In this document: positions 15,344 through 41,423 of the stretch, piece by piece
Position numbering within the stretch: position 1 is the stretch's first letter
Layout: every line of letters starts with the position of its first letter
Assembly: GCA_051362555.1 (NCBI GenBank)
Contig: CM120649.1
Span: forward strand, 62,001-126,000
DNA: 64,000 nt
Reading direction: 5' to 3'
DNA from: Lingula anatina
Taxonomy: Eukaryota; Animalia; Brachiopoda
Position numbers and translations under genes: made by a program
Notes under the pieces: model-generated
What the model was told of the DNA's origin: nothing
The model's database searches: none
What the model saw: only the letters and a program-made list of their open reading frames with translations

Positions 15344-15346
<3 letters not shown>

Positions 15347-16023: not shown

Positions 16024-16217
16024 TCACGGAAAGGCTGCTAGTAGGAGAAATAACAAAGAGACGACAGCACCCCCTGCAGAGATAGCCCTTTCCGAGCGGC
16101 TCGTCAAGCCTGCGCTGTTGATGGTACTAGACTGAGGGTCCTTGGGGCTGGTCGTGGTGGAGGTGGACCTGGTCTTAGTACCGGATTCGGGACATGGTTT
16201 GTCCGGAATCGTTTCTT
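16024..16217 (-). CDS. ACHE: Acetylcholinesterase alternative terminal exon, H-type (GPI-anchor signal)
   Basis: Acceptor TTTTTCATTTCAG| is phase-1 compatible with the donor at 33141. It reads (Q)ETIPDKPCPESGTKTRSTSTTTSPKDPQSSTINSAGLTSRSERAISAGGAVVSLLFLLLAAFP*: a single Cys, a Ser/Thr-rich spacer, small-residue omega candidates (N-S-A-G) and a C-terminal hydrophobic stretch with no cytoplasmic tail. Length 194 nt = 2 + 64 codons. Confidence 0.8.
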
Positions 16218-16384
16218 CTGAAATGAAAAAAGAATGGCATAAGTGTAGGCGGGGATGTAGTCAGCAATGATGAAGGGGGTTCTTGTATTGAAATTAGAGA
16301 CCTTTTTTTAACCCTGTAATTGACACAACTCCTATTCAAAGGGGTCCTTTTCTAGACAGTGGGTTACCTCAGTTTTCAGCCTCA

Positions 16385-19300
16385 AGTGTATCAGTACCTA
16401 TAGCGTGTTAAGACAGTGTACCAGTACCTATAGCGTGTAAAGACAGTGTACCAGTACCAATAGCGTGTTAAGACAGTGTACCAGTACCAATAGCGTGTTA
16501 AGACAGTGTACCAGTACCAATAGCGTGTTAAGACAGTGTACCAGTACCTATAGCGTGTTAAGACAGTGTACCAGTACCAATAGCGTGTTAAGACAGTGTA
16601 TCAGTACCTATAGCGTGTTAAGACAGTGTACCAGTACCAATAGCGTCTTAAGACAGTGTACCAGTACCTATAGCGTGTTAAGACAGTGTACCAGTACCTA
16701 TAGCGTGTTAAGACAGTGTACCAGTACCTATATGTTAAGACAGTGTATCAGTACCAATAGCGTGTTAAGACAGTGTACCAGTACCTATATGTTAAGACAG
16801 TGTACCAGTACCTATAGCGTGTTAAGACAGTGTACCAGTACCTATAGCGTGTTAAGACAGTGTATCAGTACCTATAGCGTGTTAAGACAGTGTACCAGTA
16901 CCTATATGTTAAGACAGTGTACCAGTACCTATAGCGTGTTAAGACAGTGTATCAGTACCTATATGTTAAGACAGTGTATCAGTACCTATATGTTAAGACA
17001 GTGTATCAGTACCTATATGTTAAGACAGTGTATCAGTACCTATAGCGTGTTAAGACAGTGTATCAGTACCTATAGCGTGTTAAGACAGTGTATCAGTACC
17101 TATAGCGTGTTAAGACAGTGTATCAGTGCCTATAGCGTGTTAAGACAGTGTACCAGTACCTATAGCGTGTTAAGACAGTGTACCAGTACCTATATGTTAA
17201 GACAGTGTATCAGTACCTATAGCGTGTTAAGACAGTGTATCAGTACCTATAGCGTGTTAAGACAGTGTACCAGTACCTATATGTTAAGACAGTGCACCAG
17301 TACCTATAGCGTGTTAAGACAGTGTATCAGTACCTATAGCGTGTTAAGACAGTGTATCAGTACCTATATGTTAAGACAGTGTATCAGTACCTATAGCGTG
17401 TTAAGACAGTGTATCAGTACCTATATGTTAAGACAGTGTATCAGTACCTATAGCGTGTTAAGACAGTGCATCAGTACCTATAGCGTGTTAAGACAGTGTA
17501 CCAGTACCTATATGTTAAGACAGTGTACCAGTACCTATAGCGTGTTAAGACAGTGTATCAGTACCTATAGCGTGTTAAGACAGTGTATCAGTACCTATAG
17601 CGTGTTAAGACAGTGTATCAGTACCTATATGTTAAGACAGTGTACCAGTACCTATAGCGTGTTAAGACAGTGTATCAGTACCTATAGCGTGTTAAGACAG
17701 TGTATCAGTACCTATAGCGTGTTAAGACAGTGTACCAGTACCTATAGCGTGTTAAGACAGTGTACCATTACCTATAGCGTGTTAAGACAGTGTACCAGTA
17801 CCTATAGCGTGTTAAGACAGTGTACCAGTACCTATAGCGTGTTAAGACAGTGTATCAGTACCAATAGCGTGTTAAGACAGTGTACCAGTACCTATATGTT
17901 AAGACAGTGTACCAGTACCAATAGCGTGTTAAGACAGTGTACCAGTACCTATAGCGTGTTAAGACAGTGTATCAGTACCTATAGCGTGTTAAGACAGTGT
18001 ACCAGTACCTATAGCGTGTTAAGACAGTGTACCAGTACCTATATGTTAAGACAGTGTACCAGTACCAATAGCGTGTTAAGACAGTGTACCAGTACCAATA
18101 GCGTGTTAAGACAGTGTACCAGTACCAATAGCGTGATAAGACAGTGTACCAGTACCTATAGCATGTTAAGACAGTGTACCAGTACCAATAGCGTGTTAAG
18201 ACAGTGTATCAGTACCTATAGCGTGTTAAGACAGTGTACCAGTACCAATAGCGTGTTAAGACAGTGTACCAGTACCTATAGCGTGTTAAGACAGTGTATC
18301 AGTACCTATAGCGTGTTAAGACAGTGTACCAGTACCTATATGTTAAGACAGTGTATCAGTACCAATAGCGTGTTAAGACAGTGTACCAGTACCTATATGT
18401 TAAGACAGTGTACCAGTACCAATAGCGTGTTAAGACAGTGTACCAGTACCTATAGCGTGTTAAGACAGTGTATCAGTACCTATAGCGTGTTAAGACAGTG
18501 TACCAGTACCTATATGTTAAGACAGTGTATCAGTACCAATAGCGTGTTAAGACAGTGTACCAGTACCTATATGTTAAGACAGTGTACCAGTACCAATAGC
18601 GTGTTAAGACAGTGTACCAGTACCTATAGCGTGTTAAGACAGTGTATCAGTACCTATAGCGTGTTAAGACAGTGTACCAGTACCTATAGCGTGTTAAGAC
18701 AGTGTACCAGTACCTATAGCGTGTTAAGACAGTGTACCAGTACCTATAGCGTGTTAAGACAGTGTATCAGTACCTATAGCGTGTTAAGACAGTGTACCAG
18801 TACCTATAGCGTGTTAAGACAGTGTATCAGTACCTATAGCGTGTTAAGACAGTGTACCAGTACCTATAGCGTGTTAAGACAGTGTACCAGTACCTATAGC
18901 GTGTTAAGACAGTGTACCAGTACCTATAGCGTGTTAAGACAGTGTATCAGTACCTATAGCGTGTTAAGACAGTGTACCATTACCTATAGCGTGTTAAGAC
19001 AGTGTACCAGTACCTATAGCGTGTTAAGACAGTGTACCAGTACCTATAGCGTGTTAAGACAGTGTACCAGTACCTATAGCGTGTTAAGACAGTGTACCAG
19101 TACCTATAGCGTGTTAAGACAGTGTACCAGTACCTATAGCGTGTTAAGACAGTGTATCAGTACCTATAGTGTGTGAAGACAGTGTACCAGTACCTATAGC
19201 GTGTTAAGACAGTGTACCAGTACCAATAGCGTGTTAAGACAGTGTACCAGTACCTATAGCGTGTTAAGACAGTGTACCAGTACCTCTAGCGTGTTAAGAC

Positions 19301-22300
19301 AGTGTATCAGTACCTATAGCGTGTTAAGACAGTGTACCAGTACCTATAGCGTGTTAAGACAGTGTACCAGTACCAATAGCGTGTTAAGACAGTGTACCAG
19401 TACCTATAGCGTGTTAAGACAGTGTATCAGTACCTATAGCGTGTTAAGACAGTGTACCAGTACCAATAGCGTGTTAAGACAGTGTATCAGTACCTATAGC
19501 GTGTTAAGACAGTGTATCAGTACCTATAGCGTGTTAAGACAGTGTACCAGTACCTATAGCGTGTTAAGACAGTGTATCAGTACCTATAGCGTGTTAAGAC
19601 AGTGTATCAGTACCTATAGCGTGTTAAGACAGTGTATCAGTACCTATAGCGTGTTAAGACAGTGTACCAGTACCTATAGCGTGTTAAGACAGTGTACCAG
19701 TACCTGTAGCGTGTTAAGACAGTGTACCAGTACCTATATGTTAAGACAGTGTATCAGTACCTATAGCGTGTTAAGACAGTGTATCAGTACCTATATGTTA
19801 AGACAGTGTATCAGTACATATAGCGTGTTAAGACAGTGTACCAGTACCTATATGTTAAGACAGTGTATCAGTACCTATAGCGTGTTAAGACAGTGTACCA
19901 GTACCTATAGCGTGTTAAGACAGTGTACCAGTACCTATATGTTAAGACAGTGTATCAGTACCTATAGCGTGTTAAGACAGTGTACCAGTACCTATATGTT
20001 AAGACAGTGTATCAGTACCTATAGCGTGTTAAGACAGTGTATCAGTACCTATAGCGTGTTAAGACAGTGTATCAGTACCTATAGCGTGTTAAGACAGTGT
20101 ACCAGTACCTATAGCGTGTTAAGACAGTGTACCAGTACCTATAGCGTGTTAAGACAGTGTATCAGTACCTATAGCGTGTTAAGACAGTGTACCAGTACCT
20201 ATATGTTAAGACAGTGTATCAGTACCTATAGCGTGTTAAGACAGTGTACCAGTACCTATATGTTAAGACAGTGTACCAGTACCTATAGCGTGTTAAGACA
20301 GTGTATCAGTACCTATATGTTAAGACAGTGTATCAGTACCTATATGTTAAGACAGTGTATCAGTACCTATATGTTAAGACAGTGTATCAGTACCTATAGC
20401 GTGTTAAGACAGTGTATCAGTACCTATAGCGTGTTAAGACAGTGTATCAGTACCTATAGCGTGTTAAGACAGTGTATCAGTGCCTATAGCGTGTTAAGAC
20501 AGTGTACCAGTACCTATAGCGTGTTAAGACAGTGTACCAGTACCTATATGTTAAGACAGTGTATCAGTACCTATAGCGTGTTAAGACAGTGTATCAGTAC
20601 CTATAGCGTGTTAAGACAGTGTACCAGTACCTATATGTTAAGACAGTGCACCAGTACCTATAGTATGTAAAGACAGTGTATCAGTACCTATAGCGTGTTA
20701 AGACAGTGTATCAGTACCTATATGTTAAGACAGTGTATCAGTACCTATAGCGTGTTAAGACAGTGTATCAGTACCTATATGTTAAGACAGTGTATCAGTA
20801 CCTATAGCGTGTTAAGACTGTGCATCAGTACCTATAGCGTGTTAAGACAGTGTACCAGTACCTATATGTTAAGACAGTGTACCAGTACCTATAGCGTGTT
20901 AAGACAGTGTATCAGTACCTATAGCGTGTTAAGACAGTGTATCAGTACCTATAGCGTGTTAAGACAGTGTATCAGTACCTATATGTTAAGACAGTGTACC
21001 AGTACCTATAGCGTGTTAAGACAGTGTATCAGTACCTATAGCGTGTTAAGACAGTGTATCAGTACCTATAGCGTGTTAAGACAGTGTACCAGTACCTATA
21101 GCGTGTTAAGACAGTGTACCAGTACCTATAGCGTGTTAAGACAGTGTACCAGTACCTATATGTTAAGACAGTGTATCAGTACCTATAGCGTGTTAAGACA
21201 GTGTACCAGTACCTATAGCGTGTTAAGACAGTGTATCAGTACCTATAGCGTGTTAAGACAGTGTATCAGTACCTATAGCGTGTTAAGACAGTGTATCAGT
21301 ACCAATAGCGTGTTAAGACAGTGTATCAGTACCTATAGCGTGTTAAGACAGTGTACCAGTACCAATAGCGTGTTAAGACAGTGTATCAGTACCTATAGCG
21401 TGTTAAGACAGTGTATCAGTACCTATAGCGTGTTAAGACAGTGTATCAGTACCTATAGCGTATTAAGACAGTGTATCAGTACCTATAGCGTGTTAAGACA
21501 GTGTATCAGTACCTATAGCGTGTTAAGACAGTGTATCAGTACCAATAGCGTGTTAAGACAGTGTATCAGTACCAATAGCGTGTTAAGACAGTGTACCAGT
21601 ACCTATAGCGTGTTAAGACAGTGTATCAGTACCTATAGCGTGTTAAGACAGTGTATCAGTACCTATAGCGTGTTAAGACAGTGTATCAGTACCAATAGCG
21701 TGTTAAGACAGTGTATCAGTACCAATAGCGTGTTAAGACAGTGTATCAGTACCTATAGCGTGTTAAGACAGTGTATCAGTACCTATAGCGTGTTAAGACA
21801 GTGTATCAGTACCTATAGCGTGTTAAGACAGTGTATCAGTACCTACAGGTATAGCGTGTTAAGACAGTGTATCAGTACCTATAGCGTGTTAAGACAGTGT
21901 ACCAGTACCTATAGCGTGTTAAGACAGTGTACCAGTACCTATAGCGTGTTAAGACAGTGTACCAGTACCTATAGCGTGTTAAGACAGTGTATCAGTACCT
22001 ATAGCGTGTTAAGACAGTGTACCAGTACCTATAGCGTGTTAAGACAGTGTATCAGTACCTATAGCGTGTTAAGACAGTGTACCAGTACCTATAGCGTGTT
22101 AAGACAGTGTACCAGTACCTATAGCGTGTTAAGACAGTGAACCAGTACCTATAGCGTGTTAAGACAGTGTATCAGTACCTATAGCGTGTTAAGACAGTGT
22201 ACCAGTACCTATAGCGTGTTAAGACAGTGTATCAGTACCTATAGCGTGTTAAGACAGTGTACCAGTACCTATAGCGTGTTAAGACAGTGTACCAGTACCA

Positions 22301-22977
22301 ATAGCGTGTTAAGACAGTGTACCAGTACCTATAGCGTGTTAAGACAGTGTATCAGTACCTATAGCGTGTTAAGACAGTGTATCAGTACCTATAGCGTGTT
22401 AAGACAGTGTATCAGTACCTATAGCGTGTTAAGACAGTGTATCAGTACCTATAGCGTGTTAAGACAGTGTACCAGTACCTATAGCGTGTTAAGACAGTGT
22501 ATCAGTACCTATAGCGTGTTAAGACAGTGTACCAGTACCTATAGCGTGTTAAGACAGTGTACCAGTACCTATAGCGTGTTAAAACAGTGTACCAGTACCT
22601 ATAGCGTGTTAAGACAGTGTACCAGTACCTATAGCGTGTTAAGACAGTGTATCAGTACCTATAGCGTGTTAAGACAGTGTATCAGTACCTATAGCGTGTT
22701 AAGACAGTGTACCAGTACCTATAGCGTGTTAAGACAGTGTACCAGTACCTATAGCGTGTTAAGACAGTGTATCAGTACCTATAGCGTGTTAAGACAGTGT
22801 ATCAGTACCTATAGCGTGTTAAGACAGTGTATCAGTACCTATAGCGTGTTAAGACAGTGTACCAGTACCTATAGCGTGTTAAGACAGTGTATCAGTACCT
22901 ATAGCGTGTTAAGACAGTGTACCAGTACCTATAGCGTGTTAAGACAGTGTACCAGTACCTATAGCGTGTTAAGACAG
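16385..22977. repeat. 6.6-kb satellite, 30-bp unit GTGTTAAGACAGTGTAYCAGTACCTATAGC with a 27-bp variant (~220 units)
   Basis: Direct observation. The variants are C/T, T/A, a 3-bp deletion and one 6-bp insertion (~21845). It lies in the AChE intron ~165 bp from the H-exon acceptor. Confidence 0.98.
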
Positions 22978-23028: not shown

Positions 23029-23365
23029 AGCAATAATAACTCTTCGTTTCGGCCAAAAAAAGAATTTTCCTGGAGTAAACAACAATTTTCCCATACTTAC
23101 CAATGGTTAATGAATCCATTTTTACACTCAAAGTTAGTCCCTGGTTTTTTTCTAAAAAGTTTGTTTTTTTGTTAAAATCTCTTAAGAGATTTTAACAGAG
23201 TATAGACATCAATGGATGTCACGTGGTCTAAAGACAAGTTCAAATATCAGAATAAAAGCTATAACTGCTGTTTTTGTGGTAAATTGGAATATATTATATT
23301 TCTATGAGTTATTCACAAGGTTTTTATTGTGAAATATAGGTCTCATACGAAGAGTTATTATCCCT
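23029..23365. mobile_element. Kolobok-type MITE (TTAA TSD)
   Basis: Left end TTAA|AGCAATAATAACTCTTCGTTTCGGCC matches the right-end reverse complement TTAA|AGGGATAATAACTCTTCGTATGAGACC. It has purine-purine termini, with TTAA at 23025-23028 and 23366-23369. Confidence 0.7.
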
Positions 23366-25093
23366 TTAAGGCTCCAAGAAAGGCTTCACAACTAACTGCA
23401 AACTAATTTTACTGAATTTAAATCCTCCGTTTAACAACTGAATGTGATAAATCTGGGTTTTCTGTGAGTGCCTATGCTTGTTATATTGTTTGTTATTTGT
23501 AAGGTAAACACGTGTGTAGAATTGTGGCTTCGCTAGCACACCCAGAACGGAAATTCGAAGTTACTTTGAACTGACATCTTCGCTGATGGATTCTTTTTTG
23601 TACTTTATATTGTTGACAGCTTCAATATGCCAAGCAAATATATTGTTTCCTATGTATGTGTCAGCGGTGTTTGTAAATATTGGATGTGTTTGAAAATGAC
23701 AATGAAGGGAATACTTGTTTTAAAATAAAATAAAATATTTCTACTGGAATATAAGTCGTAAAGGCGACAACATCAATAGTAAGGAGACTGTCCAAGGAAT
23801 TGAACATTTAGAAAGATGCCAACACAAGTGCACACATGTTTTTGTTTATGCTATAACATCATAATAAGAAATGTTTCACATCACTGCTAAAATTAAGGAC
23901 AATGTTTCTTTCTTTTTTCTCTTTTCCTTTGCTTTGGCTAATGTCGTTTCTGTCAAAGTAAAATGAAAAATGAATGAAATATTGTGTCAGCTCTGTGCGG
24001 TGTAATTTTACGGTTAACAGAGAACTGAGACGAGCGGCGGGTCTTGTTCTGCCCACCTACATTTTTGTAAAACACTGCTTGGCGGTGAAATGGAGGAACT
24101 TGAGACATAGTTCAATCGCGTCTGTTTCTTCACAACATACCGCAAATGATTTAAATTATTACTAGGTAATGAGTGTGGAATAGCGTAATTGGGCGGAGGG
24201 TATTAGCACTGGTTTCAATTGTTTCACAAAGGTCTATAGTACATTAGCGTAAAACTGTGGGTTAAAGGTCAAGCAGACATGGAAACAAATGGCTCAGGAC
24301 GGAAAATTATATGTTTACGTAGGAGTAATATGTGGGTAACTTGGAGGACTGCAGATCGTGAATGTTCCGATTTTTTTCCTTTTAAATATCTTCGTGCTTT
24401 TTGCAGTAATAAAGACTGATTTACGTTAAAATCTAAGCGTGGATTCATTTTTCGACGTGGCCAAAGATGGATGACCCCCCCCCCCCCTCTCCTATAAACG
24501 AAATGGCTGATTTAGTTTATAGTTCCCGATCAAAATTTTCTCAAAGCTTTCGTTGGTAGTAAGGCGGGGCCAAACAATTCAACTTCTTTCTATTATTCAT
24601 TTCACAATAAACTCATCAATGTACGTGAAAAAAACAAGTGGAGCTACTCAAGGCATAGGGGTGTACCTATGCCGCGAAATCCTCCATGAAAACGACATTG
24701 TGATATATTTTAGATACTTTTCTTTCCACAATGGCATGAAAGAAGTTAACAATCTCCCTAAGTGGAGAGAAGTTTACAATCGCCTCATACATGTAAGTGT
24801 TTGTGTTGTCGTTAATGGATGAAGCCCTGACACCGAGTACTAGCACTCTACAACGCAGTCAGGACACATCTCGGGACGTACGGGATCAGTCGGTATTAAG
24901 ACATCAGACCACTGTGCGGTTGACAGCGGGCTCAGAAATAGATCTACCTTAGAAGTGAGAACTTTCCTTTTTGTAAATAAACCGAGAATACAATACTTTT
25001 AATACTTGTAAAAACATCGGCGGGCGATTTGTAGTAATGCTGTTTTATACGTTATAAATATATTTTATGTGTAAGAAATTATCAGTGAAGACC

Positions 25094-25095
<2 letters not shown>

Positions 25096-25176
<81 letters not shown>

Positions 25177-25190
25177 GCGCGCACGCACAC
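25096..25190. repeat. Compound microsatellite (CT)n(CA)n(CG)n
   Basis: Direct observation. Confidence 0.95.
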
Positions 25191-25810
25191 ACTGACGTAC
25201 AGCCTTCGTAAGATAAATATAAAATCAACATTCTTAGTCATATTTTTGTAACATGGCGCCTTGAAGTTCATCTGCCCCTCTCTGTCGTTCTGTCTTATTT
25301 CGTAATGATACGGCAGAAGGCAATCTTAAAAGCTACAGGTGGTTTTTCTTTTTCTTCTATACCTACCAAGTGCTTAACGTCTCAATCGGGCGGCTGGAAA
25401 CTTTCGGATTGAAAAGAAGAGTGATAATCTTCGAAACATTACGAGTAAGGCAATTTAAAATCGTCACAGGTGGTTTCGCCTTGCGCATTGTTATATCTAA
25501 TAGATATAACCCACTATTTTGAACCTACTCAGGCCGTTTTATGAGAACAAGATTCATTTTTGTCACCCAAATATATCAAGGTCAATGCCCATTTTTCTCA
25601 AAATTTTTTTGTCTTTGCTGCCTTCATCTGTGTGTTAGTGATGTATTTATGTGGTTAAATGAATTTGAGAAACCCTTTATGAATACTGGTATTAAATAAA
25701 GTACGTTAATTTACCATAAAGTATGTGAACATACGGGTATATTTATATTCCGTGCAGATCGTCATCACGTGATATCACTTTACCAGAAGGAGGTCTCGCG
25801 ATTAGACTGA

Positions 25811-28800
25811 ACACCCAAACCCAATATAGAGGTGCATTTCACAAGTTCAAGTCTCAAAAAATGAAATTGAATGAATTCGATGTATTATCCAATTTTTTAA
25901 AACTTACATGTGTATAGAACAAAAATCCACAAATGTCCCAATTTTACGCCCACGCGTTTCTGTTTTGTAAGCAAATAAATTGATAACCGTTTGAAGTAAA
26001 AAAAGCATAAGAAAGATCATACGTTACCACTGAATCGCCTGATACAAACACGATCATTAGTTGAGCGCTGTGGAAATTTGTGCAAGCTAAAGACTATCAG
26101 AACCCTATGAGTCATTAATAATGGAAAAGTGATAGGAAAATACATTTAAATTGACCAGATCTAGGAAAATTCCTATCAAACTAAAGATCATTTTTCTTTA
26201 CAATGTCCACGTTGATGACTCTTTCAATAGCAGTAATTGTCAATTGTATAGAGAATTGAAAACTTTGTTACCTAAAAGTTACCTACCACTGGTCATATTC
26301 GTCGTGAATTTAAAACTCATTGACAGTTTCAAATTTTGGGTGTATTAGTTACAATACCAACTACGCCTCGCATCCTACGCATACCGTAATGTAACGTATG
26401 TTCCACAGCCATAGAAAAGATACGGGACACGAGTTTAATAAATATTGATAAGATGTTTCTTCGCTTATTTTACGTAGAATTTATTGAGGTGTTTAAAAGT
26501 AACTCAGACATCAAAAGTGATAACCTATTACACAAGCACCATCCGCGTATTAAACGTCTTAATCATTTGCATGTAAAGAAATACAGATCCCAGAAACATC
26601 TAACCTACCACCTCTTTAAATGAAGCCTTTTTCAACACACCTAAAGGTTTTCTAATACAGCAGAGAATTCGTTCAAAATGAGCTTTACTATCCTCTCTGA
26701 AAGGTCTAAATTGTCTTTTAGGAATTAAAAAATGTATATATATAATGTTTGTTCCATCTATAAAAAGTAAGTGGCTCACAAAATTACGTTTTACGTCTTT
26801 CCATTGAGTGAGTATAAGAAACAGATATCACTTTAGAGTTCAAGGGTCTCTATGGTCCTTATCAGTCGCTAAGACAAATTATAGGCTGCATGATTTCTTG
26901 TAAAAGTTTCCTTGAGATTTCGTAGATGTTCATACTGTGTTTTTACTCTGCCAACATGCTCGATGAATTTTTTATTTTGGTTACTGGCGCTCTTGGGCTC
27001 TACTATAGTCGTCTCGTTCAAAAAATCGTATACAGCTTGCCTTTTATTCCTGCTACTCCCATCCGTCGACCTTTCGACCAGTTCATCCCCTTTTCGCGAG
27101 TTCTCGACCAACGATTCCGGCAAATGCCAGTAGCAGCGGAAAGAAATCTGAGAAAACGGTACGTCATCGCAATCTTCTCAGCCACTATATTATGCAAAAT
27201 TTTCATCTTACTTCTTGGTGTAACTCGTTAAACTTGACCCACTGTAGCTAAAAAAAAATTCTCTATAAGTCATCATATTTTTAGGATGATTAGTCTTATT
27301 GAATATTATATGTATATATAATATTTTTTTATCCCTAAGGATAAAGGCAACAATTTGCTACATTGTTATTATTCCTAAAATAATTAGGGTAGTGGAGTAA
27401 TAAAATAAAAGCGGCCTTGTTTGACCAAATCTTGAACAATCGATATTCTTTGTTGCCTTCTTTTTGTTATAAATAAGACTATGAAAGTTTGCGGTACACT
27501 GGGATGGAGGAGACATAAAAGTAATTGCTTCTGCACAGTGTTAGCTTGGGTGCATAGCCTGCTGTATGATGCGTTCTGTCTTAATTTTGGGGCATGTGGG
27601 AAATTCAGGTGGTTCCATATTTCGTCTTCTACAATGGATAAATCGTCGCCGGATAGCATTCTCCCTCTTGCTTATGGCATTAACCTATGATTGTAGTTCT
27701 TCAATTGTTCATTGTGACTGCCTTCAGTTTCTTCTCAATCGTTTCCACGTTGTGACCACCTCGCACACACAAGTGGTGATTGCTGTGGACTTGCCTCTGC
27801 AACTTCTATAGCAGCTAGAGGCTCTTCTTTCCTTTGGTGAAGTCTACGTTTTCGCGATTTAGTCTTCGCATGCCTCTTTTGTCTTTTACGACATTTATAA
27901 GGAGGCGGAAGGTAGGCCTACATAGTATTTTGAACCCGTTTCTTTCGCTTCCAAATAAGCGTCACCCTCATTTCTTTTTTACGAGATCGATATTTTTTTT
28001 TAAATCTCAGCTCTTGGTTTCGCATTTTTCTGAAATAATGATGTTCCGTTCGGTATCAATGTATTTGGCACTGCGCTCACTGCGCTCGTTGGCGATTATT
28101 TTTTCCTTGCATAGTTTTGTTTTACATTTATTTCCGTCTTTGACATTCATTTCTGTATTTGAATTTAATTTTTTATTACGACAAAATCATTCACTTCGCC
28201 TACATTGTTACTGAGGATTTTATGGATTTATTTACACTTGTAACTAACCTCATCTAATCTTTAGCTCGAGCAGACGTCAGAAAGAACCACCTGACATCTC
28301 AAACAGAAGCTAATTTTTCTTTCGGAGCCAGTTTCGGGCACAAGTAGATTTTCACTGGTAACGTATGTTCCGGTAACGTATGTTCCAGGCCACCTAATTT
28401 TTATTTTCATAACGTGTTCTTATATATTTTGAAGTGATTTGATCATGTTAAATTAAATATGACGTAAGGACGTTTTTTATCAATATTTAAACCGTAACTA
28501 ATGGGGCCTGCGTCATAGCTAATACTAGGTAACGTATGTTCCCTAGGAAAATTGACAAAATGTTTCATTTTGTACAAGTGCTTGGTGCAAGAGAAAACAA
28601 TGTTTTCTTTTGCTGACAGAGAAATATATCGTGATTCCATGATAGTTTGACATTTCAGATATAATATTTGGAGCACAAGGGGAAAAATAATTTATTAAAT
28701 GCTTATTTTACTGTCGGTAGGGTGTATTTTCCCCGTTTTTTTAATATTCAGTGACAGGCAAACTTAAGTCGCTAAAAAACAATTAAATGCTCTATACTGA

Positions 28801-29120: not shown

Positions 29121-29391
29121 AAACGTAATATACATGTAGTAGCCTCAGTGTCAACCGCAAGGTTTGGTACGAGAATCAATGACAGTCCCTACCTTATCTC
29201 TGCTTTAAAAACATTCAGATGATCACATTGTATTTTTCATTTTGATATAAAATTAAGTTTGTGCCCGTATGTGTAGATTCGTCTTATGGAATCTACAGAT
29301 TATCGTAGTCATCTTTTCTCTTTCAAAAGAGGTTAAGATGACCAAGAAAGCGGTGAAACAGATACACGACAGCTGTTATATTAAACAAACA

Positions 29392-29397
29392 TTTATT
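29392..29397 (-). terminator. Candidate poly(A) signal for the AChE T-isoform 3' UTR
   Basis: AATAAA on the - strand followed by GT/T-rich sequence, ~2.2 kb past the T-exon stop; one of several possible hexamers. Confidence 0.35.
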
Positions 29398-31593
29398 GCA
29401 TACCATTTTACTTCTACCAAAATAAGTCAAGCGATAACGTAGTTAAATGTGACTATCAACAAACTATAAAACTCTTTTCAAACTTGAATTATTTCTCTTA
29501 TACAGAATTATTCTTTTTCCTCAAATATTTTTTAATCCCTGAATATTAAATTCTCAAAGCACAAATAAATATCTTTAATAAACGTAGAAAAAAGATCGGC
29601 ATGAAAACACCTAATATACATGGACAAGCAAATTGTTTGAACTCTTACATGTATTTGACTTGCGTTTTACAAAGCCCTGTGTAAATAAAGCGTGCGAAGT
29701 TTAGCAAACTTTATTCCGAAGATTCTTAAAACCATGAATACCAGTAAATGAAATGTGAGCTAAAATAATGCGTATTTTATCAGCTCTCCAAATTTGCCAT
29801 ACATATTAAATATAACAATAATTTTTAAACGCAGCACTTCTAGTCTGCTGGTCAGCTATACTATATAACAGTCTCAATTATACGTTTTCATGAGTGGTTT
29901 GTATTTGTGCATGGACAATAACATATTGAAAACCACCAACTTAAATAACAGTTTAATGTCCTAAAACTGAATTTGTAAAAACACGCACTCAACTGCGTAA
30001 CGTTTTTTTTTAACTTTCCCGTAATCCATCGTAAAAATGTCCCGACTTCTCACTCTTTAGATCAGTTTTTAACATCTTGCAATAACTACTATGCAGCACT
30101 AACTAGTAATAAATATAAGCTATAAAACTCATGTATATATATTGCTGCCGAAACATTTTATTTTCATGTAGACCAAATGCTTATTAAATGTCACCGTTTT
30201 CGACATAATTTGACTTTTTCTGTACCTGACGGAAGGCTGCACAGACCATTACACTGCATTTTACACAGGTAATTACTCCATCTATAGGCCGGTTTTGTAA
30301 CGTTTCTCAATTGTTGTACAGGCAATGTATTCCACGAGAACCTGAATTCGTTGATGCCGTCAATATTTCAGCCAAACAGGAAATACGTAGGAAACCGCCA
30401 CCTATCTGCTATCTTCGCGGCCAGCTCGCGCTGGAGTGATCACGTGACTGGGGGTGTGATCGCTCGTCTTATGCCTATTTTCTCATCTTTCTTGCCAGTC
30501 TTTGAGGGTTGTAGGGAATCACGCCACATGTGCCTGACCAGGAAAGCGATCGATTTTTATTCCTTCCACTCCAATTTTCACATCGACCTTCAAAAAATGA
30601 ATGAACTTCTCCAACAATCCCGCACTATAGTATATTAGTACGAGTTGAGTGAAATGACTTGAATATATCATATAGATACAACATTTAGAAACGACTTTGT
30701 TTCAAATCGAGGTAGGCTCTTTTGGATGAGGAACTCAGCCCGCTATGTTGTGTCTTGTGGGTCAGGGTGAAACTGAACCAACAGGCTCTGAACGCCAACC
30801 GAACGTCAATTGTTGACGAACGGTGCATAGCCGAATGAACAAAACTTGGACCTGCATCTACGCAAAATGCAACAACTGGAAGACGCTCTGTGACCATGTC
30901 ACAATTTGCACCTATTGGAGTCTATTTAAGCTCGAAAAAAATGAAGTTTAAAAAACTTGATTCCAAATTTATCTGCTGCCTTACTTTTCTTAGATGCGAC
31001 TTCCACTGGGGTTTTGGCGGTCTAACAGTAAGAGTATGCGTTAAATCGTTATAAAATTTCAAATATTCTTTGCTAATTTTAAATAAATATATTTGATATA
31101 AAAGGACCTAAATTATATAATCTGCCTTCCATAATGGATACTTTGACCTCAGTTTTCCACAACTACGGTATTTCACTAACTTAAAGGAGCAATGCCACAT
31201 GGCAAGACGCACACGTTACTGTGAGGGGTAAAAATAATGAGAGACTTGAGCCAGTGAACAGCCACGCAGTGATTGAAGACGATATCACTATTATCATCCG
31301 GGAACTTTGCTCAGCACAGTTCCAGTACATACCGATCTGGATTAATGTGTGAACGACATATTAAAGTGAACTTAAACTTGACTCAAGCGTCTCATTACAC
31401 GGAACCCAAAACACTAACTACATTGTAATATGTGATTCACGATGATAACAAAACCATATCTTGATAACACAGGAGATCATCTTCATCACTATCGCACTGG
31501 CGCCATCTATCGTGTATTCATCAATGTCTCACAGCGGGCGTCAATGTCATCAAAGTTTATAATAAATGTAACCGCTAACAAGTGGTGCCCTCT

Positions 31594-31736
31594 TCAGGTC
31601 TCGCCTCCTTCCCCTCCACATTTCATGTTCTGTGCTGTCATATACTGGTCATACTGATGTTTCCAGTCCACGATATACCGAGTGCTCCACTCATGAAACT
31701 GCTCCTTCCATTGTCTTTCTGCTTCGTGAATGTCCT
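31594..31736 (-). CDS. ACHE: Acetylcholinesterase alternative terminal exon, T-type (WAT tetramerisation peptide)
   Basis: Acceptor TTTTGCTATTGTAG|, phase 1. It reads (Q)DIHEAERQWKEQFHEWSTRYIVDWKHQYDQYMTAQNMKCGGEGGET*, which aligns by eye with the human t peptide [40 protein letters not shown]. Length 143 nt = 2 + 47 codons. Confidence 0.93.
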
Positions 31737-33140
31737 CTACAATAGCAAAATAGTGGACGTATTAAAATTGGGTCACTCTTCAATAACTTTAAAACAAATT
31801 TTGAAGATAAAGAATTCAGAACCGAAGGACGTTAGATTTTCGGAATTGCAAAAAAAAATCCTAATGTCTTGCCATGATCATCAAAAGAAGCACCAAGCAT
31901 TTTTTGTTTGTCTACGGCCCTGGCAGGCACGTAAATGATATAATTCTTTTTGGGGATTACATTTTGCGACCTACTTTCAGTTTCGTTTTAACAATAAGTT
32001 ATTATTTTAAAGTTCACATTATTGAGTTCTAAAACGCTCTTTTGCACTCACGTTATCTAAATATTTTTAAAACTATCCTAAAGATTCGTTACTTTGGCAA
32101 ATTTCACTCAGTTTTCTTGTTTATCTCAGATTGTTGAGTGATCAAAAACAAAAACAAAACATTCTCTTTGTTTAAACACATGTTGCCAATAGCTTCTTCA
32201 TTTTGTTTACTTAAGATCCTACATTAATGCTATAAGTGCAACTAATTAAAAGTTAGTAATTAAAGCAATTTTACTTCAGGCTTTACTCGTGCAAATGGGA
32301 ATTTTAGGTGGATGAATAAAAATGGTTCTAGAAAAGTAATTGACATTAGCTTCTAAGGCCCTATTCACATCTAGCGGTACCTTTAACTGGTCTTTGACGG
32401 TTCTAACATGTTACTACAGGGACCTTTACTGCCAGTCTTTGAAAGTGGACCGGTATATTTAAATGTACCGCTGGATGCCAAAAGGGCGTTAATTTACCTG
32501 TTGTTAGTAACTGTTCCTCAACTTGAGCGATGTTAGTCGTTAAGCCTCGAGTGCATGTCAGAAAAACAGGAAGAGCTAGCCACGTTTTGTGGCATATCCT
32601 CATGCAGCGGTGCTCGTGCAATACTATTGTCCATCTACGCAGAAAGTTCGAAGCCATAATATGCTAGCAAGAAACTTGGGAGGCGGGGTTACTGTTTACC
32701 ACGTGAATATCCGTGAAGCAGTTGTCCACACTACTACATGTACATACCCGTTGTCACGTCTTTAACTTTAAGTTAAGTATTATAAGGTCGAAGGACGTAA
32801 GTTGCATAAGACAGTCAATTAAAAAAACAAAGCTACATTAGCGTATCCGGTGTCTGTGCGTCCACTCTTTCCGATTCAATCGGTCAACTCTACCCAAGCA
32901 TATATTTGATAGCAGAGAGGAGAAAAAAGGGCATGTACAATACTATAGTTAAATGCAAATCGACATTTTATGAAAAAAAGCACAATTATCGCATTGAACT
33001 TGAGCAAGCAAGGTTAGTATGGTATATTATTGAAGCAATGCACTGCAAACCCTATAATCGCTCACAGAAAGCGATGGATAAGCGGTCATTTTCGTAAGAT
33101 AATTAACTTCACGGAAATGACCGATTGTTGCCGAACTTAC

Positions 33141-33328
33141 GTGTATCTACGATGAGTTTGGGTAGATAATGCTCCCAGAATGCACAGTGTTTGGCCCGAG
33201 GACCACGCCCCACTGCCCGCTGTTTGTCGTACAGATACTTAGTGTTGAGTTCCAGGTATTCCTTATTGCGAACCGTCCTCTTCGGCCAGTCGCTCTTGAT
33301 CTCGCCGGATGGAAAATGGTTGGGGTTC
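33141..33328 (-). CDS. ACHE: Acetylcholinesterase second coding exon (end of catalytic domain)
   Basis: Acceptor TATTCCACAG|G completes Gly (phase 2). It reads NPNHFPSGEIKSDWPKRTVRNKEYLELNTKYLYDKQRAVGRGPRAKHCAFWEHYLPKLIVDT, with the conserved GNPN, WP, YLEL and CAFW motifs. Donor C|GTAAGT. Confidence 0.95.
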
Positions 33329-33339
33329 CTGTGGAATAA

Positions 33340-33350
33340 ACAACAACAAC

Positions 33351-33389
<39 letters not shown>

Positions 33390-33396
33390 TATAATT
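33340..33396. repeat. (AAC)n(AAT)n microsatellite abutting the AChE exon acceptor
   Basis: Direct observation. Confidence 0.9.
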
Positions 33397-36300
33397 ATGA
33401 TGTTGATAAGCATAAAATCGATGATGTTAATTATGATTGTACTTCTCCTCTTCTCCTCAGCTGCACTGCTAGTAAAAACCTACGAAAACGCCGCATAACT
33501 TTTTATTCTATTCAATGACTAACACACCAAACTGCTAGTAAAGCGCGGAGTATGTTTCATACTGTATAAATTTTGAAGCAAGTTATCGTTGCTCACCCTA
33601 GTAAAATCTAATTTGGAAAATAACACCAAGCTACTCATAGGACTCGCGGAATTCAGTTAGATACCGAAACGCACCTGTAAATTTAGCCATCTAAAATTAA
33701 AAAATCTCCTCTCATCGGTTTCTCACCACCCTGATTGTGAGAGAATACTGAACAGCCATCTCCATCTCAAAGGCATACCCCCTATATAGAGGTGAGTGGC
33801 CTCGGACACCAGGGTGCTTCTCACACGCTAACACATTAAATATCACTTAAGAAGCACGCGTCAGTGACCACCTTAATATCAAAAATATCTCTTATAATAG
33901 CGCCAGGCTTAAGATCCAGTAATAAAATACTCGAGCCGTCCCAGGTGTGGGGTTCAAAAGCAATTATTTCGTGCAATGATCTTAGATCTTCACCAGCGGT
34001 CCCTTCACCTGCCACGTTAATGATTTGATATTCTAAGGAACAGATTCTTTGGATCGGTTGCACGCTTTCCGGCACCTGTATGTTTCTTGAGGTGATATAT
34101 TTACCAAAGCCCACCTCCCCATATTTTACATAGTAAGTTTGGCTATTCTAACAGTGGCACTGAGGATCAGATAGCCAAATAATAACCTAATCAGGTTCCG
34201 TTTTTTTCACGGCTGTCGAGTTGTGTTTTTATAAAAGTGCTTGCAGCCTCTTGTGAAACAATCATCTACGTAGACAGAATTTAAGATATCAACTCTCTCT
34301 CTCTCTCTCTCTCGACATAAAAGAACTGAATTTCACACTCCAAACATTTTCAGGCTGGATATTTCATGGGCAATTCACCAATAATTAGAAGAAATATAGA
34401 TATCTTCACCACAACTGGACTACAGTCATCAGACTAGTGGATTTTTACTGTAAATTAATTCATCTTCCATAACGGCACCCTGTCTATTCATTACATTATA
34501 CACTTAGGAAAACTAAAGCAATTTCTGATATATGTTATATCCAATGAAATGACAAAAGTTTAGACAACTAATTTTGTATTATATTTATAATCGCGTACTA
34601 GTCATAATACCAAGTTAAATTGTGTCACAAAAATAATCAACAAAAATGGACTTAACGTGTCAATTATTTAAAGCTGAAAACTTCAGTGCTGGGGGGGGGT
34701 ATATCCAGTGTCATTAGCATCCATATTCTTGACAAGTATGACAACTCTGTGTTAAATGAAAACATAAAACGGCTGAACATGTTCATCAGGTCAGTTTTTT
34801 CAACGTGTATGTACAATTGATAACTTACAACTTAACGGAAACGTCAACACGAAACGTTAATACGAGCGTGTATCGAGATACAATCATCAACAATCACCCA
34901 GCAGACTTGGTTACAGAAATTAAGAGAAAACGCGCTAAAGGTTGAAAGGGGAAGAAGCAAGCCCGGCGGCCGTTCGTGTTTATTTTTCTTATAAAGCCAA
35001 AGCAGTGGCGACAGACTAGAAAACGATATATAAAACTTGAATAATCCGACACGTCTAGGTATTAAATTTTGTTGATTGTTGACACGGTATGTTACACCTG
35101 AATCACTTTGAATGGAGACTAATAAATCAATTAACTTGCAATCGGGATTTACAATCATCGACTCGGTAAACTTCGATCTAGTGCTTGTTAAATAAATCTC
35201 CGCAAGTCTTGCCTTTGTTTATTGTTTACTTATGAATTTTCGGCACGCGGTGGAGCCTCGTGTAATTTTAAGTAACTACACAAAAGTGTTGCATGTACGC
35301 TGAAAACGTAAATAAATTAACATTGTGCAGTATGGACATCGTAATTCTCTTATTTTGTTTACATTTATTACGAAATATGTGTCGATCTAATCAAAATATT
35401 TCACTTTATGAAGCAGTTGTGAGAATGTGTAGTTTGTGATTAACAGCCCACAAATATGTGAAACACTGTATATTTTTCATTAATTGTTTTAATCTAATTG
35501 CAATATTCTGACATTATTTTTGTTTATTTTGTCTATGAAAACAACTGACACCGTATGTAACATATGTATGTAGCATGCAACCTGCTGGCTTTGTAATACT
35601 ACACAATTTGAGCATCACAAACTTTGTAACATACCCTACACATCTTCTCATATATACACATGAAAAGAGCCTGTGCTCAGAAATCGAACCGTGTCACTGT
35701 TCTAGTTACCCATATTGTTGACGTACATTGTATTGATACTGGGACTGTTTTGATAGCAATATTACTAAAATTTCCCTCTAGCTAGCGGCCAGTAACTGGA
35801 CTCCGTGTAGATGTCACCATAAGTGACTGCCACGCGCTGGTGGTCACCTGATGAAAACATCAAAAACTGTCCACTTCTTTATTTCACAAGTGTCCAATTA
35901 AAGCACTTGATACTTTACATGAGCGGCTTGTTGTAGGTCGTGTTGTCTCATCTTACTTTCCATTCGCCCGATTTCTCACGTTTTTATTAATTTTCAGTTT
36001 TATATCAGCATCAGACCTGTAGCACTAATAAAACAATCTACTGTCACTCGTCATAGTGCACTATAGATTTAAATCACAGTCCACTAAATCCACTAAATAA
36101 CCCTCACCAAGGCATGGGCCTGTTCCGCCTATAAAAAACACCAATATTGCTCGAGACTGATATATTTATATAAGATACATTTTTTCTGTCATGATAAGGA
36201 GGATGTGAAAAAAGCAACAGACTGCCATACAGTGAGTAACGGTCTTATAGCAATAGAGACAAAAATAAGCATAAACCATGTTGGACTCAGGCACTTTTTT

Positions 36301-36483
36301 CCCCGGCGAACACAAACAAGATACATTTTTAGTATATTGAGTCTATTTAAGCTGGTGTTGATATGGGCTGTGTTTGGCACGGTCAGGTAGGGTGAAAAAG
36401 GTGTATTTAGTCAGGTGTTAAAGGAAAACAACAATGTGCATATTTCATGAAGAGGATCGTATAACCTTCTAATGTCAATCAAG

Positions 36484-36535
36484 ATACAGGGGTACAGAAA
36501 ATACAGGGGTACAGAAAATACAGGGGTACAGAAAA
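36484..36535. repeat. 17-bp x3 repeat (ATACAGGGGTACAGAAA) within a ~30-bp direct duplication
   Basis: TATAACCTTC..ATGTCAATCAAGATACAG occurs at ~36460 and ~36536, flanking the triplet. Confidence 0.8.
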
Positions 36536-36562
36536 TATAACCTTCACATGTCAATCAAGATA

Positions 36563-37407: not shown

Positions 37408-39879
37408 CGTAAAGCTTCTGTTACTCCTGGTTGGCGATTGCTAGAAAAACTAATTTTCGAGCACATTCACCCCTTTCAAAGTTGGCGCATTAACAATATT
37501 TGACAGTCAACATCAAATTCTTACATCCTTGTTAGTTAAATTTTAATATTGCAAACCTTTCTTTTGTTACATGTAAATGTAGCCCTCTTAAGTCCAAGAA
37601 AATTGAACTGTTTTAAACCGGGACACACACGTATTAGGCCACTTAAATATGATAAACAAATGCCTTGTGAATTGGTCACAAATGTGAATCACTTTGGGTC
37701 TGAAACACGGCAAAATTTGTTGTCCTGAAAAAAAAAACAACTTTTTCTCTTTTGTGAAACATGCCCCCCCCCCCCCCCCCACCGCCCGCCCGCCCGGTAG
37801 TGGCTACATGGTTCCTGACAACCTGAGAGGCATTATACGCTGAAGTGTGGATTAATAACCAACTCACAGGTAACTTATACTCGATAGATAAGCATTTGGC
37901 TGATTCTAGCATTGTGGGCGAGTACATTCATATAAATAGGTTTGGATCTACTTTGTTTGCTCTTTATTTTGAAAATTCATGTTGATTTAAGGTATCATTT
38001 CAACCGCATTCTTATTCCTGTTGTTTTACAAATTTGACACGGGAAGAGAGAGAAAGTACGTGTGCGTGTGTATTACAGCTATAGTATGAAATGCAACACG
38101 GTGGAAAAACGAAAACATAATCCTCGGTTTCCTCACAAGAGGTCGTTTTCTTACACGTTGCATACCTCTCATAATATCACGTTTTCCACCTTGTTTGTCT
38201 TTTATCTGAAAAAGTTCACACGTTTCATTTATGATGATTACCATTTATCCAGTTCTTGAACAGATAAGTCAGTGTGGCTATGTCTGGTGATCAGGATATT
38301 GCCTCAATTTTTTATGTTACATTTGAGTGTGTTTTGACCTGCACACATTGGAAAAGAAACAAATTCTGACTTTCGCTCTCCTTCTTAAATAATATGTAAT
38401 ATAAGCTCTCTGTGAAGCGGGTTTTGATATTATTTTCGATAATCGGAACAATGTACACAAATAGGGTTTCCAGTTTTCAAACCCTTGCTCCGACATGTCA
38501 CCTTATTAGAATTGTATTCTATTCTTGTACCCACAACATCCAAATGTAATTTTTTTCCCGATGAAATATCAAAGCCATAGTACAAACAATTATCATCGAT
38601 ATCACAGATAGCTTCAGATAGCTTCATTTTGTCACAAAACAACGCCTATTCCTATTGTGGCTAATCCAACATGCGAAAAGAATTTTTTCTAGGGGTTCAA
38701 AAATCCACCACAACCTGTGGATAGGGTATGTTTGTAATAGGTGTAATTAATAGTAAGGCTAAATGTCCCTAGGGGGATAACTATAAAGATAAATATTGTT
38801 TCACTGGATACTATTATTCCAAACATTTGTCATGTAACCCCGGGGACAGTTCCGTCACGCTGTATCACAACACAAAAGCAGAGATCTGACCCCGCCCGGG
38901 GCTGGTAACATAACACTCAGCACTCGGATACAACGAAAGCCTAAATCCCGCCCCAGATAAAAAGAAATATAATCGCAATTTTCTGCTTCGGCACCTCTGC
39001 GTTTGTAAAAAGGGTGACAATTTGTCAACCACGCACCGGGTTTGAAAACATTCATTTCGTTCGATCATAAATCAAATGAAGTGATTTCAGCGAGTATTAA
39101 CCCGACATTTTTCCTTAGAAGGCCAGATACAGTCCTGCGGATTCAACATTGTAAAAAAGGAAATTATATGTCCTGATAGCGACATAATCGGAGTGTGATA
39201 ACAATATTTCATGCACCAAGCGTAAACTTAATTATACAAAGAAACCATGGCAACCAAGCGTCACGTGCTATAGATCGCGTGCACCAACGTCACTATCGGG
39301 GGCTGAAATACTTGTTGATGTTCCTTTCTAAAGTAACCAGCATTAAACTTTATAAAACGGACAAAATGACTGCCCATTTTCAGATATTTCCCATCCAACT
39401 CGATTTAAATTTCATTTGGTCTTTTCTCACGTTTCTTAACCTTTAATTTGTTGATGACGCTCCAGTAAATTGCTTCATTCACTGGATACAAATGTCACCA
39501 CCAACCAGTGAATTACCTATCGTCATGCGCAGTAGAACTATACACAAGAAACAAATTTTGAAATGTTTTTGTTTTTTGCCATCAGAAAAAAATTAATACA
39601 AAAGGATTGTGCACATAATTTCAGTATTATATGAGAACTAGGATTGCCTAAGGTAGTAGGCACTATCATGTCTTCATGGTTTGACTGTCTGGTCCATATT
39701 CATACGCCAGAGTAATTGCTTTTCTCTCAAACTGAAACTCGGATAGTTATTTCCTCGTTCCGCGGTAGAGAAAAGTGCTATCTGAGAGTTCTCAATGTTA
39801 TTTTTCGTGAAATAAAATTTTCAACTACACATTTAAAAGTAGTTTTATGATTAAATGAAAATGATAAAGGTGCACTTAC

Positions 39880-41423
39880 CCAGTTTTTGCAAAATTCACC
39901 CAATATTCCATTATTTGTTTGCTAAGTTCCCTTTCTTTTTCAGAGTATTTTAAAGCAGGATTCAGGGGCTCTCCAAACACATAATTCACTTCATCCGCGT
40001 GCATGACACCCATCCATCTTGGCCAGGGATTCTGGGAAGACCGATGTGAGAAAAAATAATAGTAGACATCCTGGCCCGCTTCTACATACGAATCCGCGAA
40101 TTCATTCACTTGACAGAGAAAATGCCAGTCCCCAATAGCATCATTCACGGCGTCCAGATGTTTATACGCATCGTCCGGGTTAAGCCAATGTGTATATTGG
40201 AACTTAATAGCCTCCAAACCGAATTTGTTGATCGTCGTTCGAAACTGAGGGTAGAAATAGAATAGATTATTTACGGCATTTGAAAATTGCTCTTGAGTCA
40301 GTGCCCCACGTTCCGTTAGGTTGAGATACTGTGGAAGCTCATAGATAGTGAAATACGAACCCTCGTCCGAATTACTCCCCAGCAGAACTGGGCAGTGTTT
40401 GAAGTTTTTATCTTCTAGAGACTTTTGCGGCCTTTCAGTGAAGAAAGTGCCATCTACAATAGGGACAAAGGGAAACTGCATTGGTCCTGTGGTGACCCAT
40501 TCCATGTCCTTGAAATGTTCAGCTGGTGCCTGCCTTAGACATTCAACAATTTCTTTGATATCACTAGAAACCTTGCAGTCCATAAGATCTGCAAGTTGTA
40601 GACCCCTTAACATAGCCTCTTTGCTGGAGTATGTAGCCCAATCCATATTCGCCGAACCGCTTTCCATGATAGCGCGACTGAACTTCCCGCGACTCAGTGG
40701 TGACAGCAGGTGCATGCTCACGCTCACTGCTCCAGCGCTTTCACCAAACAGTGTCACGTTCCTTGGATCTCCCCCAAAATGGTGAATATTTTCCTGAATC
40801 CAAGACAAAGCAAGAAGTTGGTCAAAGAGGCCAGCGTTTCCTGGCGCCTCCGGGTGACCAAAAGCCAAGAAGCCTAGAGATCCTACTCTGTATTGCATAG
40901 TAACATATATAATATCATGTTCAGCTACTAGGTACTTTGGATCATAAACGTCTAGAGTATAGGTACCGCTGTAAAAACCACCACCAAAGATCCAAACAAG
41001 CACAGCTAGATTCCTCCTCGGTGTTTTAGTCCTGGGGGCCCACACACTCAAATACAAGCAGTCCTCACTCACAGGGGTATTGGGATTCCACATCTGTGAC
41101 CCGGTAAAATTTCCAAACGTGTTATCCTCCCCTTGCATACACGTGTTCGCATGTTTTGTCGCGTTTAAAATCCCAGTCCAGGGTTTATTGGGCGTGGGGT
41201 GTTTAAACCTCAGGTCCCCCACTGGGGGTTCAGCGAAGGGGATCCCAAGGTACATATCTATTGTCTTGCCGTTGACGACGGTCTCAGTTCCCCTGAGGGT
41301 CCCCTTTTCTGTCCGTATTAGTCTGTTCCCTGAGGTAATAGAGGGGGAGAGGGAGAAGAGGAGAAAGAGGAGGGCGCCCAGTCTGTAGAGTAGAGTTGTC
41401 ATCATTGTCACCGTCTTCATCAT
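39880..41423 (-). CDS. ACHE: Acetylcholinesterase first coding exon (signal peptide plus most of the catalytic domain)
   Basis: Acceptor TCTTCCAG| at 41444 and Kozak-like GCGGCCATG, then a signal peptide. Motifs: GIPFAEPP, SEDCLYL, oxyanion GGGFYSG, catalytic GESAG / DEGSYF / GVMHADE, choline-site W (QMWNPN) and peripheral-site W (EWV). It ends FAKTG with donor GG|GTAAGT (GTAAG at 39879-39875). Confidence 0.97.

What the first reader, a model, noticed from the sequence alone, without database searches (positions are those of the whole stretch)
16024..41423. Invertebrate AChE gene with two alternative terminal exons: T (tetramerising) and H (GPI-anchored)
Seen: the phase-1 donor at 33141 can join either of two strong acceptors (31736 and 16217). 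Both give sensible in-frame C-termini, a WAT/t peptide (624 aa) or a Cys + GPI signal (641 aa), and neither appears in the ORF track. Established: T/H alternative splicing of one ACHE gene is the vertebrate (Torpedo, mammal) way of making tetrameric versus GPI-dimeric enzyme, whereas nematodes use separate ace genes and insect AChEs are essentially GPI-type. Inference: this probable lophotrochozoan makes both anchoring modes from one locus, either as an ancestral bilaterian arrangement or by convergence. I cannot check whether this is already annotated.
Basis: partly seen in the sequence, partly recalled or inferred. Interest (0 to 1): 0.85.

Follow-up and report, generated by a model that had tools for sequence, protein, structure and literature searches.

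The report
Brachiopod acetylcholinesterase with two alternative tails
The acetylcholinesterase gene of the brachiopod Lingula has two candidate last exons: a near one, spliced on in RNA reads, whose tail is predicted to build tetramers, and a distant transcribed one that is likely spliced on instead and predicted to add a lipid (GPI) anchor; vertebrates make the same choice with the two exons in the opposite order.

Summary
The minus-strand gene is Lingula anatina ace-1-class AChE, two residues from RefSeq isoform X2. The phase-1 donor at 33141 gives 624 aa with the acceptor at 31736 and 641 aa with 16217. The T exon matches PF08674 and PDB 1VZJ, and its junction is seen in 3 of 4 RNA runs (2, 58, 3 reads). 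The distal H exon encodes Cys, a likely omega site and a hydrophobic tail. It is covered on the right strand in 2 of 4 runs (11 and 12 reads), with no depth in its intron, and not at all in the T-rich run. No read across its junction was listed, and GPI anchoring is only predicted. In relatives, T and H tails alternate among lophotrochozoan orthologues at the same junction. The closest genomic relatives of the H-type Mya and Lineus proteins carry a T exon. One unnamed animal shows T then an H-like exon (L036). The order is the reverse of human ACHE. No prior report was found in 10 searches, but two key reviews and the other RefSeq isoforms could not be seen.

The parts
45289..45336 (-). coding part of an upstream exon that gives the N-terminal extension of RefSeq X2; phase-0 donor GT at 45288; in this window the RefSeq Met codon reads GTG and an in-frame ATG lies two codons upstream
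   Evidence: not covered by the RNA lays
39880..41444 (-). exon A: signal peptide and most of the catalytic domain (ATG 41423; W112, G147-G149, S229, E354, H475)
   Evidence: (COesterase 501.7 bits)
33141..33328 (-). exon B: last constant exon, ends in the phase-1 donor shared by both tails
   Evidence: RNA depth in 4 of 4 runs
31594..31736 (-). T exon, coding part (47-aa WAT/t peptide with terminal Cys)
   Evidence: joint reads in 3 of 4 runs
29350..31593 (-). 3' UTR of the T form (depth 22-47 in X4; weaker tail to about 25800); AATAAA at 30561, 30162, 29715, 29397
16385..22977 (.). 30-bp tandem array, 223 copies, inside the long intron, ending 168 nt before the H acceptor
16024..16217 (-). 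H exon, coding part (64 aa: Cys at +9, Ser/Thr-rich linker, likely omega site at N611 or S612, 20-aa hydrophobic end)
   Evidence: RNA cover in X1 and X2, none in X4 and X7
14950..16023 (-). likely 3' UTR of the H form (patchy cover; AATAAA 15881, ATTAAA 15375 and 15296)

Best explanation
One Lingula ace-1-class acetylcholinesterase gene splices its last constant exon to a near T exon, whose tail is predicted to drive tetramer assembly, and likely also to a distant H exon, whose tail is predicted to give a disulfide-linked, GPI-anchored dimer. The two are alternative last exons, each with its own 3' UTR and polyadenylation signals. To make H, the transcript must skip the T acceptor and its poly(A) sites and run about 15 kb further. 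The choice differs between samples: T only in X4, mostly H in X1, both in X2. So it is likely tissue- or stage-regulated. Shown: gene structure, T junction, H-exon transcription. Inferred: H junction, GPI addition, oligomer states, regulation. The same two-tail option is likely shared by the orthologous gene in nemerteans and bivalves.
For: Frames and splice signals. PF08674 and 1VZJ match (E 2.1e-8), with the seven aromatic positions kept and a one-residue insertion. T joint in 3 of 4 runs. H exon covered on the gene's strand, depth peaking on the coding part and zero in the intron; X1 edge arithmetic fits 16217. Depth bookkeeping, exon B against T + H: X1 5.7 vs 0.7+4.3, X2 8.7 vs 4.9+2.8, X4 53 vs 59+0. 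In an 18-row lophotrochozoan clade (SH-aLRT 99), T and H tails alternate: Tubulanus T / Lineus H; Sinanodonta and Mercenaria T / Mya H; Solemya H. Exon B of genomic locus L009 is closest to H-type Mya P0054 (score 287, next 265) and that of L003 to H-type Lineus P0004/P0003 (236/234, next 181), yet both loci carry a T exon 2.2 and 1.4 kb downstream. L036 has exon B, T exon, then a GPI-type exon 1.7 kb further.
Against: No read across 33141->16217 was listed; H support is only 11 and 12 reads, and X7 had none although it covers exon B (depth 4.9, T 1.9). Exon B depth was derived from a 446-nt bin and may include some intron read-through. The GPI rule is my own, and passes 2 of 177 real control acceptors. 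No database representative bearing the H peptide was found (0 of 160 candidates, weak test). No same-species T/H pair was found among the 62 of 120 proteins with a full C-terminus. The L036 exon is 1 frame in 813 sense acceptors against 1 in 891 antisense controls, and has no match in related loci L012 and L019. An H-like block upstream of T in another animal group does not keep its frame.
Confidence: 0.77

Rival explanations
1. The 16217-16024 stretch is non-coding transcript (far 3' UTR, a UTR exon spliced behind the T stop, or read-through), and its GPI-like frame is chance.
For: No junction read listed; 2 of 177 real control acceptors pass the GPI rule; X4 shows a long low tail of transcription behind T.
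Against: In X1 the H depth (4.3) exceeds the T-exon depth (0.7), so the molecules do not carry T; X4 has 58 T joints and 0 reads at H; depth stops at the acceptor; the frame fits phase 1 with Cys at +9, like the 41 H-type tails (Cys at 7-18).
Confidence: 0.08
2. The H exon is spliced to exon B, but its tail is not exchanged for GPI: it stays as a membrane anchor, or the enzyme is secreted.
For: No trained GPI predictor was available; honeybee AChE1, of the same ace-1 class, was found PI-PLC-insensitive and soluble (PMC3492254 passages); GPI prediction was inconclusive for salmon-louse AChE1a (PMC4418574 passages).
Against: Small-residue triplets at -31 and -30 from the end, a polar spacer, and a 20-residue hydrophobic end with no charged residue and no cytosolic tail.
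Confidence: 0.1
3. The exon at 16217 is the last exon of a different gene or non-coding RNA nested in or behind the AChE locus.
For: The junction partner was not seen; 16385-22977 was not examined with RNA.
Against: No other spliced joint on unique sequence among the 15 shown for 23100-36450 (10 more not shown); no Pfam match for the one candidate frame tested in between (26872-27177); 16385-22977 is a tandem array.
Confidence: 0.05

Closest known systems
Vertebrate ACHE T/H alternative splicing (Torpedo, mammals)
   Same: One gene, one donor after the catalytic domain, a WAT tail or a Cys + GPI-signal tail (PMC3045457, PMC5943944, PMC5388418 passages). The T peptide aligns with PDB 1VZJ.
   Different: In human ACHE, H uses the proximal and T the distal 3' splice site of one terminal region. 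Here T is proximal (1.4 kb) and H distal (16.9 kb), with a separate UTR. The H peptide has a longer Ser/Thr linker, and the T peptide has a one-residue insertion shared by protostome T exons.
Arthropod ace-1 (AChE1), e.g. PDB 5X61 (best solved match; identified as mosquito AChE1 from recall)
   Same: Best solved match (E 7e-196); same junction; tails with Cys at 7-18 and a hydrophobic end.
   Different: None of the 43 rows in the arthropod clade carries a T tail.
Nematode ace-1 (T-type) versus GPI-type ace paralogues
   Same: T-type tail on a class I enzyme in an invertebrate (recalled; P0154 resembles it).
   Different: Nematodes use separate genes for the anchoring modes (recalled; PMC8821594 passages agree for one species); PMC4418574 states this as the invertebrate rule.
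RefSeq Lingula anatina acetylcholinesterase isoform X2 (P0001)
   Same: The T form of this gene; 2 substitutions in 624 aa.
   Different: 21 extra N-terminal residues; the other two cluster members were not seen. X1 may be the H form (inference from the naming and from H being the longer tail).

Membership tests
Cholinesterase, class I / ace-1 | Ser-Glu-His triad, choline-binding Trp, GGG oxyanion hole | tested here: met
   S229, E354, H475, W112, G147-149 located by motif; aligned to solved AChEs
Cholinesterase, class I / ace-1 | Closest relatives are ace-1-type enzymes | tested here: met
   no ace-2 sequences were in the trees
Cholinesterase, class I / ace-1 | Hydrolyses acetylcholine with AChE-type specificity | not testable with these tools
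   needs an enzyme assay
AChE-T (WAT) splice form | WAT peptide with conserved aromatic residues and terminal Cys | tested here: met
   PF08674 31.9 bits over cut-off 25; 1VZJ alignment; Cys at tail position 40
AChE-T (WAT) splice form | Spliced to the catalytic domain | tested here: met
   joint 31736/33141 in 3 of 4 runs
AChE-T (WAT) splice form | Tetramer assembly on a proline-rich partner | not testable with these tools
   no genome held to look for a partner; no complex job run
AChE-H (GPI) splice form | Cys near the junction, omega site, hydrophobic C-terminus | tested here: met
   own rule, not a trained predictor
AChE-H (GPI) splice form | Spliced to the same donor as T | tested here: inconclusive
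   exon transcribed with its edge fitting 16217, no junction read listed
AChE-H (GPI) splice form | PI-PLC-sensitive amphiphilic dimer | not testable with these tools
   bench test
Vertebrate ACHE 3' arrangement | H acceptor proximal, T acceptor distal | tested here: not met
   window has T proximal and H distal against PMC5388418

The most novel reading that the evidence does not exclude
The ancestral protostome class I cholinesterase gene already had two alternative last exons in the order T then H. Lophotrochozoans kept both; arthropod ace-1 lost T and kept H; nematode ace-1 kept T. The vertebrate H exon, which lies before T, is then a separate invention or a rearrangement. The T/H anchoring switch would be a general bilaterian device rather than a vertebrate speciality, possibly steered by STAR/Quaking-type proteins through ACUAAY motifs upstream of the T exon.
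Probability: 0.4. Interest if true: 0.7.

Novelty: new variant of a known kind. Interest (0 to 1): 0.52.

Why it matters
Papers state that invertebrates encode different AChE forms by separate genes (PMC4418574). They also leave open whether GPI tails were invented repeatedly, shuffled in or exonised (PMC3045457 section 16). A brachiopod gene with both tails, in the reverse of the vertebrate order and with signs of the same option in nemerteans and bivalves, makes that question testable genome by genome. It would also mean that mollusc and other marine-invertebrate AChE, widely used as a pollution biomarker, can come as tetramer-type and GPI-type forms from one gene. It is a new setting and layout for a known mechanism, not a new mechanism.

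Tried and rejected
No genome is held for this window, so paralogues and proline-rich partners could not be sought. The members of the P0001 cluster and of the Mya, Lineus and Limulus clusters could not be listed. The H-peptide search among longer proteins gave 0 of 160 candidates (weak, and isoforms are merged at 90%). The search with exon B + T gave only P0001 among 13 candidates. No indexed RNA holder was listed; 4 of the 9 listed runs were laid, 6-25% of each. The T-exon HMMER search gave 37 hits, two of them unrelated repeat proteins, and no same-gene T/H pair. A conserved block 0.6-1.6 kb upstream of T in a group of related unnamed animals reads as an H-like frame in L028 and L032. It loses the frame or the acceptor in L008, L010, L013, L014 and L026, so I rejected it as an H exon; Rfam gave no match. 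The ESM Atlas did not place L035 taxonomically. ACTAAY enrichment upstream of T is post hoc and patchy, and is kept as a lead only. Three look-ups of earlier findings were empty. Ten paper searches listed no report of T/H splicing in a lophotrochozoan; two reviews were not held. PMC3264636 had no hit for the splice or anchor terms. No fold or complex job was run.

Full report
Gene and observation. The minus strand holds an acetylcholinesterase gene: exon A 41423 (ATG) to 39880, phase 2; exon B 33328-33141, phase 1, donor C|GTAAGT. Joining to 31736 gives 624 aa, to 16217 gives 641 aa, and read-through gives 587 aa. The best database hit is RefSeq Lingula anatina 'acetylcholinesterase isoform X2' (P0001, 645 aa, 3 cluster members). 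It is the T form, differs at 2 of 624 residues, and has 21 extra N-terminal residues from an exon near 45330-45289. The triad S229/E354/H475 and W112 are present. The best solved match is 5X61 (E 7e-196), and the nearest named relatives are lophotrochozoan enzymes and arthropod ace-1.

T exon. It scores 31.9 bits on PF08674 (cut-off 25) and aligns with the WAT peptide of 1VZJ (E 2.1e-8), keeping the seven aromatic positions with a one-residue insertion. Reads from 4 of 9 listed runs (6-25% of each run) show the joint 31736/33141 with GT-AG ends in X1 (2), X4 (58) and X2 (3), and none in X7. X4 shows a 3' UTR to about 29350 and a weaker tail to about 25800.

H exon. The 64-residue tail has Cys at +9, a Ser/Thr linker, small-residue triplets 31 and 30 residues from the end, and a 20-residue hydrophobic end. 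By my own rule (no trained predictor was on hand) it is the only pass among 66 strong acceptors in 30 kb. Five of 16,739 shuffled acceptors pass, but so do 2 of 177 real control acceptors, both microsatellite-derived, and the rule was written with this exon in view. RNA is the independent evidence. X1 laid 11 and X2 12 reads on 14950-16300, all on the gene's strand, with the depth highest over the coding part and zero at 16238-16300; X4 and X7 laid none. In X1 the bin containing the acceptor holds 52 bases, exactly two reads ending at 16217, though other sums are possible. Exon B depth roughly equals T plus H in three runs (5.7 vs 0.7+4.3; 8.7 vs 4.9+2.8; 53 vs 59+0) but not in X7 (4.9 vs 1.9+0). 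These are bin-derived values on few reads. No joint or loose end at 16217 reached the listing threshold, and no single lay covered both exon B and H, so the junction is inferred, not seen.

Relatives. Of 120 listed homologues, 62 have a full C-terminus: 41 H-type, 13 T-type and 8 other; the remaining 58 were left out. All change tail at the same junction. In the 18-row lophotrochozoan clade (SH-aLRT 99, quick tree) the types alternate: Tubulanus T beside two Lineus H, Sinanodonta and Mercenaria T around Mya H, Solemya H, cephalopods and caenogastropods T. The 43-row arthropod clade has no T (the same pattern). No same-species pair was found, and cluster members could not be listed.

Genomic loci of relatives. 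A metagenome scan with a T-exon alignment gave 37 loci from 71 pattern matches, mostly with T as a separate phase-1 exon. L009's exon B is closest to H-type Mya and L003's to H-type Lineus, yet both carry a T exon downstream, with no rule-passing H exon in between. L036, an unnamed animal whose enzyme (via L035) sits on a long branch unresolved at the base of the protostome group, outside the supported lophotrochozoan clade, has exon B, T, and then a 32-aa GPI-type frame 1.7 kb further. By count this is no better than control (1 frame in 813 sense acceptors, 1 in 891 antisense), and L012 and L019 show no match; its shape and place make it suggestive only. A conserved block upstream of T in another group does not keep its frame and was rejected as an H exon.

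Mechanism. Most likely these are alternative last exons. Use of the near acceptor and its poly(A) sites gives the T form, predicted to tetramerise. Skipping them gives the H form, predicted to be a disulfide-linked GPI dimer. The sample differences suggest regulation. Four ACTAAY motifs lie in the 1.4-kb intron before T (1.2 expected, p 0.037, the highest of 45 sense windows, matched by one antisense window). L035/L036 have six (2.3 expected), while L009, L012 and L019 show no excess. This is a post hoc lead for STAR/Quaking-type control (motif and role recalled).

Comparison with what is known. T/H splicing is described for Torpedo and mammals, and H tails are said to have arisen several times or by exon shuffling (PMC3045457: passages and section 16). 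WAT-PRAD assembly: PMC5943944 passages. Human order is H proximal, T distal (PMC5388418 passages), the reverse of this locus. PMC4418574 (passages) says invertebrates use separate genes. PMC3492254 and PMC8821594 were seen as passages, PMC2289553 as a listing only. Ten searches of the open library listed no report of T/H splicing in a lophotrochozoan. Pezzementi & Chatonnet 2010 and Chatonnet et al. 2017 were not held and may mention it; no supplements were read. RefSeq may already carry the H form as X1 (inference).

Verdict. A real feature with a well-supported T form and a probable H form: a new variant of a known kind. Interest 0.52. The bolder reading, that T-then-H is the ancestral protostome layout sorted differently in arthropods and nematodes, has about 0.4 probability.

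Noticed in passing
window 2-2683 (+): One open frame of 894 aa, cut by the window start, with LDLa repeats, LRRs and a rhodopsin-type 7TM domain; the layout recalls GRL101-type receptors (name recalled).
   Followed up: partly
window 16385-22977: 30-bp tandem array of 223 copies ending 168 nt before the H acceptor; whether it affects H use is unknown.
   Followed up: no
window 23100-23370: High-copy transcribed repeat with opposite-strand joints, like a small inverted-repeat transposon.
   Followed up: no
window 33140-31737 (-): Four ACTAAY motifs (33018, 32537, 32508, 32257) and one TGCATG (32606) in the intron before the T exon.
   Followed up: partly
window 33140-33109 (-): Read-through past the donor would give a short R-type tail (587 aa); slight intronic depth in X1 and X2.
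   Followed up: no
window 45336-45289 (-): Upstream exon: the RefSeq start codon reads GTG here, with an in-frame ATG two codons earlier.
   Followed up: partly
window 5728-6141 (+): 138-aa frame that looks like the tail of a non-LTR retrotransposon protein (recalled resemblance; no Pfam match).
   Followed up: no
L028:3630-3840; L032:1430-1610; L008, L010, L013, L014, L026 likewise: Block conserved 0.6-1.6 kb upstream of the T exon in a group of related unnamed animals, with invariant TGACGTCAATG and a possible GATGCGG/CCGCATC stem; frame not kept; no Rfam match. A regulatory element or a decayed H exon.
   Followed up: partly
L028:7820-8010 and matches in L005, L014, L017, L021, L025, L032: Second conserved non-coding block 1.4-3.2 kb downstream of the T exon.
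   Followed up: no
L012, L019, L034-L036; P0137, P0143, P0150, P0151: T peptides ending in xDEL, xGEL, xDEF or xNEL, resembling ER-retention signals.
   Followed up: no
P0030; L004: Unnamed T-type enzyme that groups with the arthropod clade in one tree and is unresolved in another; if ecdysozoan, it bears on when arthropods lost T.
   Followed up: partly
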